Positions 12,001 to 18,000 of a stretch of DNA of 38,098 nt are shown piece after piece; the stretch's first letter is position 1; each line of letters starts with the position of its first letter. Location of the stretch: IMG/VR virus record IMGVR_UViG_2563366991_000005. One strand, 5' to 3'. Position numbers: made by a program. The stretch is from a virus (Duplodnaviria > Heunggongvirae > Uroviricota > Caudoviricetes).

Positions 12001-15000
12001 AAGTCGCCCTACGCTGTCGCTGAGTGCACTGCTGAAACAGTATGGTATCCGCCTGACGGCTAATCAGGCATATCACCAGATGGCGAAGCTGGGGATCGTT
12101 GAACAACGCGAACGATACAGCCGTACCGCGATTAACAACATCAAAAAATTCTGGTCGCTGACAGCGAAAGGCTGCATGTTCGGCAAGAACATCACCAGTC
12201 CCGTAAATCCGCGCGAGACGCAGCCGCATTTCTTCGAATCCCGATTCCCTGAGCTGTTAAAGCTGCTCGATACCGTTCATTGAGGTGACCGTGAGAGCAC
12301 TACTGACCCCTGAAATTGCCCCGCGTATGGGGATCGTATTGTTCAGGCCCGGTTCAGAGCTGATGCCCCTGTTTATGCAGGGGCGTGTCCTGCTGGAGCC
12401 TGAGCCGGAGCATTATTCATCTTTCGCCAGTGGTGCCGTTCCCGCGGCGTCACAACCGCTGGCGGATGATCCTGCCGTTCGGGCCGTGTTCCGCAATGAG
12501 GCAGTGATCCGTCGTGCTGGTGGCGTGGAATGTCTTGAAAGCTGGTTACTTCGTGAAAAAGGCTGCCAGTGGCCTCATTCCGACTGGCACAGCGAGAACA
12601 TGACCACAATGCGACACGCTCCGGGTGCAATCCGTCTGTGCTGGCACTGCGATAACCAGCTGCGCGATCAGTTCACGGAACGGCTGGAATCAATGGCAAC
12701 GGATAACTGTGCCCGCTGGGTGTTGTCTGTTGTGCGTCGGGATCTCGGTTTTGATGACAGTCACGTTGTGACAATGCCGGAACTGTGCTGGTGGCTGATT
12801 CGTAATAACCTGGCGGATGCCTTACCGGAAAGTGCAGCCCGTAAGGCACTGAGATTACCGAAGCCTGTTGTGCCGTCTGTCACCCGGGAAAGTGACCTTG
12901 TGCCTTCGGTTCCTGCTACCAGCATCATCCAGGATAAGGCGAAAAAGGTGCTGGCGCTGAAAGTGGATCCGGAGTCGCCGGAGTCTTTTATGTTACGCCC
13001 AAAACGTCGCCGCTGGGTTAATGAAAAGTACACGCGCTGGGTTAAGACACAGCCGTGTGCATGTTGTGGAAAGCCTGCTGATGATCCCCACCACCTGATA
13101 GGTCACGGTCAGGGTGGAATGGGTACAAAAGCGCATGACCTCTTTGTGTTGCCTTTGTGCAGAAAGCATCACGACGAGCTGCATGCAGATACCGTGGCAT
13201 TTGAAGAGATGTATGGCTCCCAGCTGGAGCTGATATTTCGTTTTATCGATCGTGCGCTGGCAATTGGCGTGCTGGCCTGATTTTGTGGAGAAAGTTGATG
13301 CGTGATATGTATGAAGTTTTGGACCGCTGGGGGGCATGGGCTGCTGCAGAAAACAGTGGTGTGGACTGGCAACCGGTAGCTGCTGGCTTCAAGCGGCTTT
13401 TACCTCATGGCAGAAAGTCCCGGATTCAGTGCGATGATGATGAGGGCATCATAATAGACGGTTGTGTCGCTAGGTTGCGTAAATACAAGCCGGCAGAGTA
13501 TGAGCTGATAATTGCTCACTTTGTTGTTGGCATTTCGCTCCGTACAATTGCAAAGAAGCGGAAATGTTCAGACGGAACAGTTCGAAAAGATATGCAAACA
13601 GCTATGGGGTTTATTGATGGGTGCTTGTCATTTTTTTTTTATTTAATACAATGAGTTAAGTGCTATGTAAAATCATTCTACTTTCCCAACTTTTATGTGT
13701 ATATAATACCAGGGTAAAGTAACGGAGAATCTTGTGAACATTCAAGCAGTAGACATTTTTTGTGGCGCAGGGGGCTTAACTTTTGGGCTAAAAAAAGCCG
13801 GGATTGAAGTTTCTCATGGCATTGATATTGATGAGTCCTGCCGTTTCGCTATTGAGAGCAATAATCCCTTAACGAAGTTCATTAACCAGTCAGTTACTGA
13901 ACTGCAATCCAGCGATGTGTCTGCTATGTTCAAGGAAGGAAATATTAGATTACTTGCAGGCTGTGCCCCTTGCCAACCGTTTTCCAAGTATCGTAATCCA
14001 AATAGCAGAAAAGATGATACAAAGTGGCGTCTTTTATCTGAGTTTCAGAGGATTGTAAGTGATGTCATGCCAGAGCTTGTGACTATGGAAAATGTTCCTC
14101 AACTTAGAAATCATAAGGTTTTTGAAGAGTTTGTTAGTGTATTAAAGACTCTTGGGTATCATCTGTGGTACGACGTTGTAAAATGTTCCGAGTATGGCTT
14201 GCCTCAAAATAGACGTAGATTAATTCTAATTGGGTCCATATTGGGGCCAATCAGCCTTGATCAAAAAAAAGTAAGCCGTAAAGTTACAGTAAAGGATGCT
14301 ATTGGTCAGTTGCCAAAAATAGGTGCAGGGGAGAAACTCGAAAGTGATCCATTGCATCGTTCGCCTAAATTAAGGGATATTAACCTTAAACGAATCTTGC
14401 ACTCTTTACCAGGTGGTACGTGGGATGATTGGCCTGAAGAAATTAGAGCGGATTGCCATAAAAAGCATTCAGGTGCTACCTATAAAAGTGTTTATGGACG
14501 GATGGTTTGGGACGATACTAGTCCTACAATAACTACCCAATGTTATGGATATGGTAATGGGCGATTCGGACATCCTGAGCAAAATAGAGCAATAACTTTG
14601 CGTGAAGCTGCTATTTTACAATCTTTTCCTATGGATTATAAATTTATTGGAAAAAATACGCCTTTTTCATTCCAAAAGTTAGGAACGATGATTGGTAATG
14701 CTGTTCCCCCTATAATTGGCCAAGTAATAGGGAGAACGTTTGTTAGGCATGTTGAGGGGATAAATATCCGTTAGAGATAATATAATCTTCAGTTGAGTTT
14801 ATTAATAAACGAAGATATAGATCAACTCTCTCTGCTCTAGACTTAACTTCTTCTAAGGGGTCAATTTGCCCCTTTTTAGAGAAGCTAGTACTTCCATGCG
14901 CGAGTTCGTTTCTGATATCCTTAAGCAAGTCTAAGTCAATACCATTTCTACATTCAGGTGAGTTTGCGATAGTTATTCCGTAAGCCTGCGTTATTTTGTG

Positions 15001-18000
15001 TAATACAGGCTTGCAAACATTACCATTGAATTCTTTACGAATATTCAATGAGGCTGAAATTATTCTTTTGGAAATGTCAGTGCCTATCTTTTTATAAAGG
15101 GATTGCCCTGTTTCATTATCTGAAACAATTCTATGCAATATATTTACTTGAAGCTTCTCCCTGAGTGATGCGTAATTCACCTCATTATCTTGTAAATGAT
15201 CATAAATTGACTCGATGCAACCTCTGGCAGTATTTTCAACTTGATTATATAGCATCATATGAACGGATGATTTTAAAATATTTACCCTTAGGATATTAGA
15301 TTCTATTTCATCTTGATGCGCTTGCGGATCTAACTGCTGAGTATGAATCTCTATAGATGATGCAAGAGAAAGCAGTTCCATAATGTCTCTTGCTCTTTCT
15401 TCATATTCATCTCGTAAATCAATTAGACTCATTTTTAAATCCCTAACAACTTATTTTTAACGTAAAAGATTCTGTTTTTTAGCTGGCTGGTATTGTTTGC
15501 ACTATCAGCAGTAACAAGTGTTTCAAATTCCTCTTCAAATAGCCATTCACCTACAGGTACGGCTGGACTCTGGAGTTGTGGGTTAGTTTTTAATGCAAGT
15601 GCAGTTCCCACGGCAATGGCTTCGTATCTGGCTCGTGGGGTGGTTTTACTTGTTGCGGTCTTTTTAAAGCCAATAGGGAAATGGGTAGCAACAAAAGCAA
15701 GCATCATTTCAAAATCATGTTTAAAATTATCAACATCTTGTTGAGTAGTCACAGCTGCTGCTTGTTCATTTAAATAATTATCAATAAAGGGACGGACAAA
15801 TCCCTTATAGTTTTCTAAATCATTTAAATATGCAAAAAATCTCAAAACTAACTCACGATGATCGCCATTCGACCGTTTCCGGTCTGATAATGGAGCTAGT
15901 TGGGAAAAAAGTGAGTTTGTTGAGCATGGGGTCACAACATCTTTATAGAACATTGAGGTAGCAGCATCTGAGCCATGCCTCACTTCCATCGCTTCTAATC
16001 TTTTAACACCTGAGTTGATCCTTTCAAATAAATCTCTTCTATGTTGTTCCTCAACATCACCTTTCAACTCAATAAATCTTAGTGAAGCTCTTAAAAATCT
16101 TCTTTGGCGGCTAGCTAAAAGATCTGAAAATTTGAAACCTTCTAAACTTTTAAGCTCTTTCAAATCCTTTAACTCAAATTGATCGTTCCAAAAATAATAA
16201 ATAGAGCGTATCCGTTGTGAACCATCAATGATTTCTACCCTACCATCTAATTCAGGGTCTTCATTAAATACATCAGCAATGTAAAGGTAAGGTATTGGAA
16301 AGTCTAATAGAATACTTTCTATAAAGCGAGAGGCTGTTTTTGTATCCCACTTGTAATCACGTTGATAATCTGGAATAAAAAGCTCGTTTTTGTCATTTTC
16401 AATATTATCACCATACTTTTGAATAATGACTTCAACGGTCCACTCACGTACATTGTATCCAATGTTTCTCTGAGCGAGTCTGATTTCATTGTCAGCGGAA
16501 GCGGTTAAAGCTGCAATTTCAGCCTTTTTTCTGTTCTTAGCGTGTTCATCTTGTATCTGAGCAAGCTCTTCTTTGAGTTCTTTGAGTGTAGTCATGTTTT
16601 CGTTCCTTTAATTGAAAGTTGATTGTAAGAAAACTATAACGCGTACGCAAAAAGTATTGTATTGTGTTAAGAGTGGTTACTTCGCCACACAACTTAAACC
16701 CGCCGTCGAGCGGGTTTTTTTGTACCTGTAAACCTGGTGCAGTACGGTAAACACGCTGGTGGTCGTGAATACTGACTTTTTATCTTGCTGGCTTTTTAGA
16801 CAAGAGTTATTGGTATGTCATGTTAACCAGAAGGAAAAAAGACATGCTAAAACAGCAAGATATGACAGAAACGGCGAAAGTTGTTTTTAATGAATTAAGC
16901 ATCGAACCGGCAACAGTCGGGGAGATTGCACAAAACACATATCTTTCACGCGAACGCTGTCAGTTAATACTGACCCAGTTGGTTATGGCGGGGCTGGCAG
17001 ATTACCAGTTCGGCTGTTACAGACGCCTTCAGCAATGAAGGACTTTTAATTTGTGAAAATGGGCGGCTGGTGGGTGTTGGTAGCACCTGCCAGCCATTCG
17101 CTCATGCTTACTGGTCACAAGCGAACCACGGCCCACTGCTTTAGCGCAAAAGCAGAGTGAGCCTACCAGAGTTACGCTTACTGATCCATGAAAAATACTG
17201 TAAAAATAAACAGTGTTGATTTAATCAACGCTGATTGCCTGCATTTTATTCAGTCCCTGCCTGATGATTCCATTGACCTGATTGTTACCGATCCGCCTTA
17301 CTTCAAGGTGAAACCCAACGGTTGGGACAATCAGTGGAAAGGGGACGAAGATTACCTTAAGTGGCTGGACCACTGTCTGGCCCAGTTCTGGCGGGTGTTG
17401 AAACCTGCCGGAAGCCTTTACCTGTTCTGTGGGCATCGCCTGGCATCTGATATTGAGATCATGATGCGTGAACGTTTCAACGTGCTTAACCATATCATCT
17501 GGGCGAAGCCGTCCGGACGTTGGAATGGGTGTAATAAAGAAAGTCTGCGCGCATATTTTCCTGCCACAGAGCGCGTTCTGTTTGCTGAACATTACCAGGG
17601 GCCATATCGCGGCAAAAGTGACGGCTATGCGGCAAAAGAAAGGGAACTCAAACAGCACATAATGGCACCGCTGATATCGTATTTCAGGGATGCTCGTGCC
17701 GAACTGGGTATAACGGCAAAACAAATTGCCGAAGCCACAGGTAAGAAAAATATGGTTTCCCACTGGTTTGGTGCCAGTCAGTGGCAGTTGCCGAATGAGG
17801 CTGACTATCGGAAGTTACAGGCACTGTTTTCCCGTATAGCGGCAGAGAAGTTTCAGGAACAACAACTGGAACAACCACACCACCAGCTGGTGGCACCTTA
17901 TGATTCACTGAATCGCAAATATTCTGAATTGCTGGATGAGTTTAAATCTCTCCGGCGCTATTTCTCCGTATCAGTCTCCGTGCCTTATACCGATGTCTGG

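What the first reader, a model, noticed from the sequence alone, without database searches (positions are those of the whole stretch)
14743..16595. Split GmrSD-like pair with the DUF1524 partner apparently replaced by a HEPN-type module
Seen: the 386-aa protein carries FIPDYQRDYKW and EIIDGSQRIRSIY; the downstream 229-aa protein has no D/E-H-x-x-P His-Me-finger motif that I can see, but does have DIRNELAHGS near its C-terminus. Genes are 2 nt apart with an internal RBS, so they are co-translated. Inference: nucleotide-dependent sensing by the ParB-like protein coupled to an RNase effector would make this abortive-infection-like rather than a DNA-cleaving type IV enzyme.
Basis: partly seen in the sequence, partly recalled or inferred. 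Interest (0 to 1): 0.8.

Follow-up and report, generated by a model that had tools for sequence, protein, structure and literature searches.

The report
DUF262–HEPN–methylase prophage defence cassette
The two genes are a real ParB-like (DUF262) sensor plus HEPN RNase pair, but they belong to an already catalogued, widespread three-gene cassette that also includes the neighbouring cytosine methyltransferase, so this is an uncharacterised member of a known class of phage-defence modules, not a new kind of system.

Summary
On the minus strand, a 386-aa DUF262/GmrS-type protein (16595..15435) is followed 2 nt later by a 229-aa HEPN protein (15432..14743). The HEPN protein matches Pfam HEPN_MAE_28990 at E 2.9e-17, its Rx4H motif is invariant in 127 relatives, and it has no DUF1524/His-Me hit.

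The convergent C5 DNA methyltransferase (13734..14774) overlaps the HEPN 3' end by 32 nt. An orthologous or replacement C5 methylase sits next to the pair in 52 of 68 assessable loci across several phyla. All three genes occur together in all 107 E. coli genomes that carry the cassette.

[quoted passage not shown] RefSeq already names both proteins. A sister two-gene architecture, PD-T4-2 (DUF262 + HEPN), is a validated anti-T4 system.

The cassette is a low-GC insert between the Q antiterminator and the lysis genes of a lambdoid prophage.

My best mechanistic reading is inferred, not shown. The methylase marks self DNA, the DUF262 NTPase senses unmarked DNA, and it then unleashes the HEPN RNase, giving abortive infection.

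Novelty is modest: a new member of a known kind. Interest 0.35.

The parts
15435..16595 (-). Gene A: 386-aa DUF262 (ParB/GmrS-type NTPase-fold) protein with an NsnA-like C-terminal region. Predicted DNA/nucleotide sensor.
   Evidence: Pfam GmrSD_N E 5.8e-26, residues 66-206. PADLOC NsnA E 5.9e-45 over residues 14-315 and PD-T4-2_A E 4.6e-27 over 72-346. DYQR and DGSQR are invariant in 41 homologues. No DUF1524 hit.
14743..15432 (-). Gene B: 229-aa stand-alone HEPN protein of the MAE_28990 family. Predicted RNase effector.
13734..14774 (+). Gene M: 346-aa C5 cytosine DNA methyltransferase, convergent to A-B. Conserved third component, predicted self-marking.
   Evidence: Pfam DNA_methylase E 2.7e-54. 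An orthologue (phmmer E 1e-100 to 1e-137) is adjacent in 46 of 80 related loci, and another C5 methylase is adjacent in 6 more. Always present with A-B in 107 E. coli genomes. A-M distance correlation r=0.86, Mantel p<=0.001. Residues 241-300, which by my reading span part of the target-recognition region and motif IX, are the best conserved.
14743..14774 (.). 32-nt overlap of the convergent 3' ends of the methylase and HEPN genes.
   Evidence: Coordinates. The 3' ends overlap in 26 of 37 convergent related loci, median overlap 4 nt.
15440..15444 (-). Shine-Dalgarno-like AGGGA for the HEPN gene, inside the last codons of gene A (2-nt intergenic gap).
   Evidence: Sequence read. The tight junction is conserved in 73 of 73 loci.
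16603..16650 (-). Upstream region of gene A: AAGGAA ribosome-binding site (16608-16603) and a weak promoter-like TTGCGT-17-TACAAT (16650-16622).
   Evidence: Read directly from the sequence. The -35 element matches only 3 of 6, so the consensus scan did not list it. This is inference only.
13625..13652 (+). Promoter-like site TTGTCA-16-TACAAT at the end of the Q gene, about 80 nt upstream of the methylase. Candidate late (PR'-type) or methylase promoter.
   Evidence: Consensus scan, 10 of 12 matches. The methylase lies directly after a Q gene in both E. coli cassette alleles. Function not shown.
16696..16717 (+). Intrinsic-terminator-like hairpin plus T-run on the + strand, just outside the right border of the cassette.
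   Evidence: 8 pairs, 5 GC, T-run. Homology to a cassette-free prophage resumes at 16665.
13309..16664 (.). Variable, low-GC insert between DUF968 (ninG position)/Q and the lysis cassette of the lambdoid prophage. It holds the Q allele plus the three-gene cassette.
   Evidence: The related prophage L085 is collinear only up to 13308 and from 16665. GC is 35-40% in the cassette against 45-54% in the flanks.

Best explanation
**What it is (shown).** This is a compact, horizontally mobile three-gene cassette carried as a 'moron' between the Q antiterminator and the lysis genes of a lambdoid E. coli prophage. It consists of:
- a C5 DNA methyltransferase (M);
- convergent to it, a tightly coupled operon of a DUF262/ParB-fold protein with intact DYQR and DGSQR motifs (A);
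- a stand-alone HEPN protein of the MAE_28990 family with an invariant Rx4H catalytic motif (B).

**How it most likely works (inferred).**
1. M methylates a fixed cytosine-containing site on the host and prophage DNA, marking it as self.
2. A and B are made in fixed proportion and form a complex in which A keeps the HEPN RNase silent.
3. A scans DNA using its NTPase-switch DUF262 domain and its C-terminal DNA-binding region.
4. When A meets DNA that lacks the mark (an infecting phage or other incoming element), nucleotide-dependent rearrangement releases or activates B.
5. B cuts RNA (tRNA, mRNA or rRNA) and stops translation, aborting the infection or arresting growth.
6. The same wiring would also stabilise the cassette. 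If the cassette is lost, the mark is diluted out and the RNase is triggered.
7. During prophage induction, Q-dependent late transcription would read through M and run antisense across B and A. This would raise methylation and lower sensor/effector expression while phage DNA replicates.
For: - **Identity of the parts.**
- **A-B is an obligate pair.** The HEPN gene directly follows A in 77 of 80 loci from gamma-proteobacteria, cyanobacteria, Planctomycetes, Verrucomicrobia, Bacteroidota and others; the other 3 are contig ends. The junction is -14..+18 nt in 73 of 73 loci. A-B distances correlate at r=0.92.
- **M is a functional partner.**
  - 52 of 68 assessable loci have a C5 methylase adjacent: 46 orthologous and 6 of another C5 family, so adjacency is kept even when the enzyme is swapped.
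  - The loci without one form a single cyanobacterial clade, plus one recent loss.
  - All 107 E. coli genomes with the cassette have all three genes.
  - The same triad appears in a Vibrio island, next to McrBC in Pseudomonas, in a P2-like phage hotspot, and in Moraxella phages.
  - Residues 241-300 of M, which by my reading include part of the target-recognition region, are its most conserved segment. That would fit one shared specificity.
- **Defence role.**
  - It sits in prophage and island hotspots.
  - B is the fastest-evolving gene, at 43% mean identity against 56-58% for A and M.
  - The sister architecture PD-T4-2 (DUF262+HEPN) protects E. coli from T4 natively and in K-12 (PMC9519451).
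  - PD-lambda-5 (ParB/HEPN protein + methylase) is also a validated defence.
- **Precedents.**
  - DUF262 acts as an NTP-dependent DNA-modification sensor in GmrSD, BrxU and SspE (PMC10952713, PMC12065111).
  - A DNA-activated HEPN tRNase causing abortive infection is known (DARNA preprint).
  - The suggestion that methylase-linked ParB-DUF262 proteins may target non-modified genomes has been made before (PMC12065111).
Against: - Nothing here shows RNase activity, A-B binding, the methylase site, or which DNA state is sensed.
- Sixteen cyanobacterial loci with room on both sides have intact A-B pairs flanked by housekeeping genes (clpB, glyS, argS, acs) and no adjacent methylase. The pair can therefore persist without a linked M. 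A methylase encoded elsewhere in those genomes could not be checked.
- PD-T4-2 works as a two-gene clone without a methylase.
- All characterised DUF262 sensors recognise modified, not unmodified, DNA.
- Distance correlations among A, B and M could partly reflect shared host phylogeny.
- The promoter and terminator assignments are consensus matches only.
Confidence: 0.5

Rival explanations
1. Type IV-like sensing. The DUF262 protein recognises modified phage DNA (for example hmC or glucosyl-hmC of T-even phages), as GmrS, BrxU and SspE do, and switches on the HEPN RNase. The neighbouring methylase is a separate prophage gene, for example protecting phage DNA from host restriction.
For: Every characterised DUF262 sensor detects a DNA modification. 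PD-T4-2 (DUF262+HEPN, no methylase in the clone) blocks T4. A-B pairs exist without an adjacent methylase in one cyanobacterial clade.
Against: A C5 methylase is adjacent in 52 of 68 assessable loci across phyla and mobile-element types. Its 3' end overlaps the HEPN gene in 26 of 37 convergent loci. Adjacency is retained even when the methylase family is exchanged. The methylase is never separated from A-B in 107 E. coli genomes. A hitch-hiker would not show this pattern. A 5mC-sensing system next to a 5mC writer would be self-toxic.
Confidence: 0.2
2. Restriction-modification plus suicide back-up, the 2013 comparative-genomics model. The ParB-fold protein is itself the DNase that restricts unmethylated DNA. 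The HEPN RNase is held inactive by it, as PrrC is by EcoprrI, and fires only when a phage inhibits the restriction activity.
For: This is the proposal of Anantharaman et al. [quoted passage not shown] It fits the conserved triad seen here.
Against: In studied DUF262 proteins the domain is an NTPase/sensor, and cleavage is done by the fused DUF1524 domain. That domain is absent here. No nuclease family other than HEPN is detectable in A, B or the flanks.
Confidence: 0.15
3. Primarily an addiction (post-segregational killing) module that stabilises the prophage or island. Phage defence would be at most a side effect.
For: The toxin-like HEPN gene is tightly coupled to a partner and a methylase, as in selfish type II R-M systems. 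The cassette is always inherited as a block in E. coli and rides on several mobile elements.
Against: It occupies known defence hotspots: the lambdoid Q-lysis moron site, the P2 right-end hotspot, and a position next to McrBC. Its closest tested relatives are defence systems. This reading is compatible with the best explanation and not exclusive of it.
Confidence: 0.1

Closest known systems
MAE_28990 HEPN / ParB / DNA-methylase operons (Anantharaman et al. 2013, Biol Direct 8:15; Pfam PF18737)
   Same: This is the same HEPN family: 64 bits, full-length match, conserved Rx4H. [quoted passage not shown] RefSeq uses this family name for the identical protein.
   Different: Nothing structural differs. 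That description is purely computational. It treats the ParB-fold protein as a nuclease and gives no experimental function. The prophage location and the E. coli alleles are described here.
PD-T4-2 (Vassallo et al. 2022; E. coli ECOR65; 'DUF262, HEPN')
   Same: It is a two-gene operon of a DUF262 protein followed by a small HEPN protein whose HHpred hits are RiboL-PSP-HEPN (97.8%) and MAE_28990 (96.9%). Gene A here hits the PADLOC PD-T4-2_A model at E 4.6e-27 over residues 72-346. PD-T4-2 is a validated anti-T4 defence.
   Different: - The HEPN protein here gets no hit to the PADLOC PD-T4-2_B model.
- The PD-T4-2 operon is shorter: 1540 bp against 1853 bp.
- The PD-T4-2 clone that confers defence contains no methylase, whereas here a C5 methylase is a conserved partner.
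- Gene A scores higher against NsnA than against PD-T4-2_A.
- The PD-T4-2 sequences themselves could not be retrieved for a direct alignment.
PD-lambda-5 (Vassallo et al. 2022; 'ParB/HEPN, methyltransferase')
   Same: It combines the same three activities: a ParB-superfamily domain, a putative HEPN, and a DNA methylase. It is an experimentally active, broad-range defence.
   Different: The families differ: ParBc rather than DUF262, only weak HEPN signals fused in one protein, and a Dam-type (MethyltransfD12) adenine methylase rather than a C5 enzyme. None of the three proteins here listed a PD-lambda-5 model among its PADLOC hits (for the methylase only the best 25 of 62 hits were shown).
Menshen (NsnABC)
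   Same: Gene A is most similar to NsnA (PADLOC E 5.9e-45, residues 14-315 on model positions 11-302 of 385). This covers ParB-DUF262 plus the start of the 'ParBDB' DNA-binding region.
   Different: There is no NsnB ABC-ATPase transducer and no NsnC effector. The effector here is a HEPN protein encoded directly after the sensor.
GmrSD / BrxU / SspE (type IV and related DUF262-DUF1524 enzymes)
   Same: The N-terminal DUF262 fold has the DGxQR-type nucleotide-binding motif.
   Different: There is no DUF1524 His-Me finger domain in either protein. PADLOC scores against the SspE, Orf5 and HEC-05/06 models are weak (E 1e-6 to 1e-2) and limited to the first motifs. A methylase partner is present.

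Membership tests
HEPN superfamily, MAE_28990/MAE_18760 family (Pfam PF18737) | Profile match above the curated threshold over the whole domain | tested here: met
   E 2.9e-17, 64.0 bits against a cut-off of 26.8, profile positions 5-211 of 211.
HEPN superfamily, MAE_28990/MAE_18760 family (Pfam PF18737) | Conserved Rx4-6H catalytic motif | tested here: met
   R174-NELA-H179. R174, L177 and H179 are invariant, and N175, A178 and G180 are at least 90% conserved, in 127 relatives.
HEPN superfamily, MAE_28990/MAE_18760 family (Pfam PF18737) | All-alpha HEPN fold | tested here: inconclusive
HEPN superfamily, MAE_28990/MAE_18760 family (Pfam PF18737) | Operon with a ParB-fold gene and a DNA methylase (family description, 2013) | tested here: met
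   Window genes 13734-16595. 77 of 80 loci carry the ParB/DUF262 gene, and 52 of 68 assessable loci carry a C5 methylase.
HEPN superfamily, MAE_28990/MAE_18760 family (Pfam PF18737) | Metal-independent endoribonuclease activity | not testable with these tools
   Needs an RNase assay with wild-type protein and R174A/H179A mutants.
GmrSD-type type IV restriction enzymes | DUF262 domain with a DGQQR-type motif | tested here: met
   GmrSD_N E 5.8e-26. DGSQR is invariant.
GmrSD-type type IV restriction enzymes | DUF1524 His-Me finger nuclease (DHxxP), fused or adjacent | tested here: not met
   There is no DUF1524/HNH hit at E<=1 in either protein. Neither translation contains a [DE]HxxP motif. The flanking genes are methylases and phage genes.
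GmrSD-type type IV restriction enzymes | Cleavage of modified (hmC/glucosyl-hmC) DNA | not testable with these tools
   Needs phage panels and in vitro assays.
PD-T4-2 | PD-T4-2_A-type DUF262 protein | tested here: met
   PADLOC PDLC04027 E 4.6e-27, residues 72-346 on model positions 52-322 of 363. The NsnA model scores higher.
PD-T4-2 | PD-T4-2_B-type HEPN protein | tested here: not met
   No PADLOC hit to PD-T4-2_B at E<=1. The two proteins share only the Pfam-level HEPN families.
PD-T4-2 | Two-gene system sufficient for anti-T4 defence | not testable with these tools
   Needs cloning and plaque assays. Here a third gene (the methylase) is conserved with the pair.
Menshen (NsnABC) | NsnA-like ParB-DUF262 + ParBDB sensor | tested here: met
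   PADLOC NsnA E 5.9e-45.
Menshen (NsnABC) | NsnB ABC-ATPase and NsnC effector encoded downstream | tested here: not met
   The only downstream gene is the HEPN gene. There is no ATPase in the cassette or its flanks.
Restriction-modification-like (self-marking) systems | Dedicated DNA methyltransferase genetically linked to the effector genes | tested here: met
Restriction-modification-like (self-marking) systems | Methylation protects DNA from the system | not testable with these tools
   Needs a methylase deletion or toxicity test and infection with pre-methylated phage.

The most novel reading that the evidence does not exclude
The cassette is a methylation-gated RNA-targeting immune system. 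Self/non-self discrimination works as in a restriction-modification system: a C5 methylase marks self, and a ParB-fold NTPase reads the absence of the mark. The output, however, is a HEPN RNase that shuts down the cell instead of a DNase that cuts the invader. No member of this widespread class (MAE_28990 operons, possibly PD-lambda-5) has had that logic demonstrated. It would also be the first DUF262 sensor shown to read unmodified rather than modified DNA.
Probability: 0.35. Interest if true: 0.65.

Novelty: new member of a known kind. Interest (0 to 1): 0.35.

Why it matters
If the inferred wiring is right, this easily cloned 3-kb E. coli cassette would be a convenient model for three open questions.
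- How do DUF262/ParB-fold sensors read DNA modification state?
- How is that signal passed to a separate effector protein?
- Why do so many HEPN RNases sit beside methylases?

The cassette is present in about 2% of complete E. coli genomes, including ST131 lineages. It rides on several temperate phages, so it probably shapes phage host range and superinfection exclusion. As a discovery it is incremental: the family, its neighbourhood and a validated sister system are already in the literature and in RefSeq product names.

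Tried and rejected
- **First AF2 model.** The HEPN model built from a 15-sequence alignment was poor (pLDDT 68), and its Foldseek search was meaningless. It was redone with 127 sequences (pLDDT 96.6).
- **PDB sequence searches.** Profile searches found no solved relative of B, and only a marginal DUF262 hit for A (20yv/20yw, E 1e-3).
- **Methylase specificity.** The PDB search for the methylase returned DNMT1 and M.HaeIII-type catalytic cores, which do not allow its specificity to be inferred.
- **PD-T4-2 and PD-lambda-5 sequences.** I could not obtain them for direct alignment. 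Only accession numbers and HHpred tables are in the supplement. Comparison therefore rests on the PADLOC models.
- **PD-T4-2 mode of action.** Whether it acts by abortive infection is shown only in a figure and could not be read.
- **A-B complex prediction.** This was not possible with the tools, which predict single chains only.
- **Alternative methylases in the cyanobacterial loci.** I tested whether the 871-895-aa ORF upstream of A in Microcoleus-type loci was a large methylase. It is ClpB, and the other neighbours are housekeeping genes.
- **Considered and rejected.** Menshen is ruled out because there is no NsnB or NsnC. GmrSD membership is ruled out because there is no DUF1524. A chance R-x4-H is ruled out by profile and conservation evidence.

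Full report
**1. Observation**

The window carries two minus-strand ORFs at the stated coordinates: 16595..15435 (386 aa) and 15432..14743 (229 aa). They are separated by 2 nt. The quoted peptides are present.

The first protein is a DUF262/GmrS-type ParB-fold protein (Pfam GmrSD_N, E 5.8e-26). Its DYQR and DGSQR motifs are invariant in 41 homologues down to 53% identity.

The second protein has no DUF1524/HNH signal. It matches the HEPN_MAE_28990 profile end to end (E 2.9e-17, 64 bits against a curated cut-off of 26.8) and, more weakly, HEPN_RiboL-PSP.

The R-x4-H is not a chance motif. An exhaustive profile search found 1285 cluster representatives of this family, nearly all stand-alone proteins of about 225 aa. 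In an alignment of 127 of them, R174, L177 and H179 are invariant, together with Y62, N63, E66 and G137.

An AGGGA ribosome-binding site lies inside the last codons of the first gene. The stop-to-start distance is between -14 and +18 nt in all 73 related loci where it could be measured. Translational coupling is therefore a reasonable, conserved inference.

**2. What the unit really is**

The gene on the other strand that ends inside the HEPN gene (13734..14774, 32-nt overlap) is a C5 cytosine DNA methyltransferase (Pfam E 2.7e-54).

Homologues of the DUF262 protein from Vibrio owensii and Pseudomonas sp. M47T1 (about 60% identity) sit in unrelated contexts: an integrase-bounded island, and a site next to McrBC. 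Both have exactly the same three genes in the same arrangement.

I then scanned one genome per species and analysed the best 80 loci with my own HMMs.
- The HEPN gene directly follows the DUF262 gene in 77 of 80 loci. The other three are cut by contig ends.
- An orthologous C5 methylase (phmmer E 1e-100 to 1e-137 against the window enzyme) is adjacent in 46 loci. Of these, 37 are convergent downstream, 7 upstream on the same strand, 1 downstream on the same strand, and 1 follows a duplicated HEPN gene.
- Six more loci have a different C5 methylase in the adjacent position.
- Sixteen loci with room on both sides have none, and twelve cannot be assessed.

A neighbour-joining tree of the DUF262 proteins shows that the methylase-less loci form one cyanobacterial clade, plus one recent loss. 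There the pair is flanked by housekeeping genes such as clpB, glyS, argS and acs.

Other results point the same way.
- Pairwise distances of the three proteins are correlated: A-B r=0.92, A-M r=0.86, Mantel p<=0.001.
- The HEPN protein evolves fastest, at 43% mean identity against 56-58% for the other two.
- Residues 241-300 are the most conserved part of the methylase. By my reading these include part of the target-recognition region and motif IX, which would fit one shared specificity. I did not test that reading.
- In 26 of 37 convergent loci the methylase and HEPN 3' ends overlap.
- In E. coli the cassette occurs in 107 of 5426 complete genomes, always as all three genes. There are two alleles: 34 genomes at 99% identity or more, and 73 at about 86.8%, including ST131.

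**3. Genomic setting**

The window is a lambdoid prophage. The cassette lies between the Q antiterminator (13283..13654) and a small ORF, an N6/N4 methylase and the holin-lysozyme-Rz genes.

A related prophage without the cassette is collinear up to 13308 and from 16665, and carries an unrelated minus-strand gene in between. The cassette has 35-40% GC against 45-54% in the flanks.

The second E. coli allele sits at the same place, directly after a Q gene, in a different lambdoid prophage.

The same triad is carried in two other temperate phage types.
- In a P2-like phage it sits at the right-end hotspot next to gene A. There the methylase is truncated.
- In Moraxella phages Mcat24-32 the methylase is 51% identical and has a 4-nt convergent overlap.

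A promoter-like site (13625-13652) precedes the methylase, and a + strand terminator (16696-16717) lies just beyond the cassette. These are consensus matches only.

**4. Mechanism**

Three things are shown: the parts, their tight coupling, and their co-inheritance with a C5 methylase.

The rest is inferred. The methylase marks self DNA. The DUF262 protein, together with its NsnA-like C-terminal region (described for NsnA as a DNA-binding 'ParBDB' domain in PMC12065111), acts as the nucleotide-dependent DNA sensor. The HEPN protein is the RNase effector, silent in the complex until the sensor meets unmarked DNA.

The precedents are:
- DUF262 as an NTP-dependent modification sensor in GmrSD, BrxU and SspE;
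- a DNA-activated HEPN tRNase that causes abortive infection;
- the published speculation that methylase-linked ParB-DUF262 proteins might target non-modified genomes.

The main rivals are:
- modification-dependent (type IV-like) sensing with an unrelated methylase;
- the 2013 model, in which the ParB-fold protein is the restriction nuclease and HEPN is a PrrC-like suicide back-up;
- a mainly selfish addiction role.

The methylase-less cyanobacterial clade, and the fact that PD-T4-2 works as a two-gene clone, keep the first rival alive. The retention of a C5 methylase even after family replacement argues against it.

**5. Comparison with what is known**

The operon type is listed in Table 1 of Anantharaman et al. 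[quoted passage not shown] RefSeq annotates the identical proteins as 'DUF262 domain-containing protein' and 'MAE_28990/MAE_18760 family HEPN-like nuclease'.

PD-T4-2 from E. coli ECOR65 is 'DUF262, HEPN'. Its B protein hits RiboL-PSP-HEPN and MAE_28990 by HHpred, and it protects against T4 both natively and in K-12.

PD-lambda-5 combines a ParBc/weak-HEPN protein with a Dam-type methylase.

Against PADLOC models, gene A scores best on Menshen NsnA (5.9e-45) and then PD-T4-2_A (4.6e-27). Gene B hits no PD-T4-2_B model, and no NsnB or NsnC genes are present. On these model scores, which are not an actual run of a defence finder, I would not expect the cassette to be called as PD-T4-2 or Menshen, although it belongs to the same broad class.

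I found no paper in the library that tests this subfamily, and no solved structure.

**6. Verdict**

This is an uncharacterised member of a known kind of DUF262-HEPN defence module. The open and testable question is how the methylase gates it.

Noticed in passing
window 16820-17038 and 17188-18240 (+): A second DNA methyltransferase (N6/N4 type, Pfam E 2e-42) is preceded by a 72-aa winged-helix-like ORF, just upstream of the holin gene. Both are also present in related prophages that lack the cassette (L085), so they belong to the phage backbone and not to the cassette. The prophage therefore encodes two different DNA methylases within 4.5 kb.
   Followed up: partly
L087 (Peduovirus P24B2, NC_049387.1 26619-32118): 140-3041: A P2-like coliphage carries the same DUF262 + MAE_28990 HEPN + convergent C5 methylase triad at the right-end hotspot beside replication gene A. 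Its methylase is annotated as only 234 aa: it aligns to residues 1-228 of the window enzyme and lacks the C-terminal third. A 37-aa ORF fills part of the gap. This could be a frameshift or pseudogene, which would be informative about whether A-B tolerates loss of the methylase.
   Followed up: partly
L035 7077-8043, L039 7489-8688, L076 7050-8073: In Okeania and Dapis (cyanobacteria) the DUF262 gene is followed by two HEPN-family ORFs or fragments in tandem. In the two Okeania loci these precede the methylase; L076 has no adjacent methylase. These are duplicated or decaying effector genes.
   Followed up: no
phage records (e.g. NC_009821.1 Escherichia phage Phi1 116547-117059): About 45 lytic Escherichia phage records, those listed having 164-171-kb genomes (two further records are named Krischvirus), encode a stretch 30% identical to residues 7-191 of the DUF262 protein. 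It is annotated as two adjacent hypothetical proteins. A phage-borne DUF262 N-terminal fragment could be a decoy or anti-defence factor, or a nuclease relic.
   Followed up: no
L058, L059, L064, L068, L070 (Microcoleus/Lyngbya), about 2.2-5.7 kb: In one cyanobacterial clade the A-B pair sits directly downstream of clpB and among housekeeping genes, with no methylase nearby. This looks vertically inherited rather than mobile, and may be a domesticated version.
   Followed up: partly
window 12285-13280 and 13283-13654 (+): A DUF968 protein with a C-terminal HNH-like Cys/His cluster is directly followed by the Q antiterminator. Homology to cassette-free prophages breaks inside the start of the Q gene (13308). 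The Q allele and the cassette may therefore travel together as one exchangeable block.
   Followed up: partly
L001 (E. coli AR437, NZ_CP029108.1) 22.5-29.4 kb: In strain AR437 the prophage that carries an identical cassette is heavily degraded: the portal gene comes directly after the lysozyme gene, and the protease, Lom and tail-fibre genes are truncated. All three cassette genes remain intact, so the cassette is retained in a decaying prophage.
   Followed up: no
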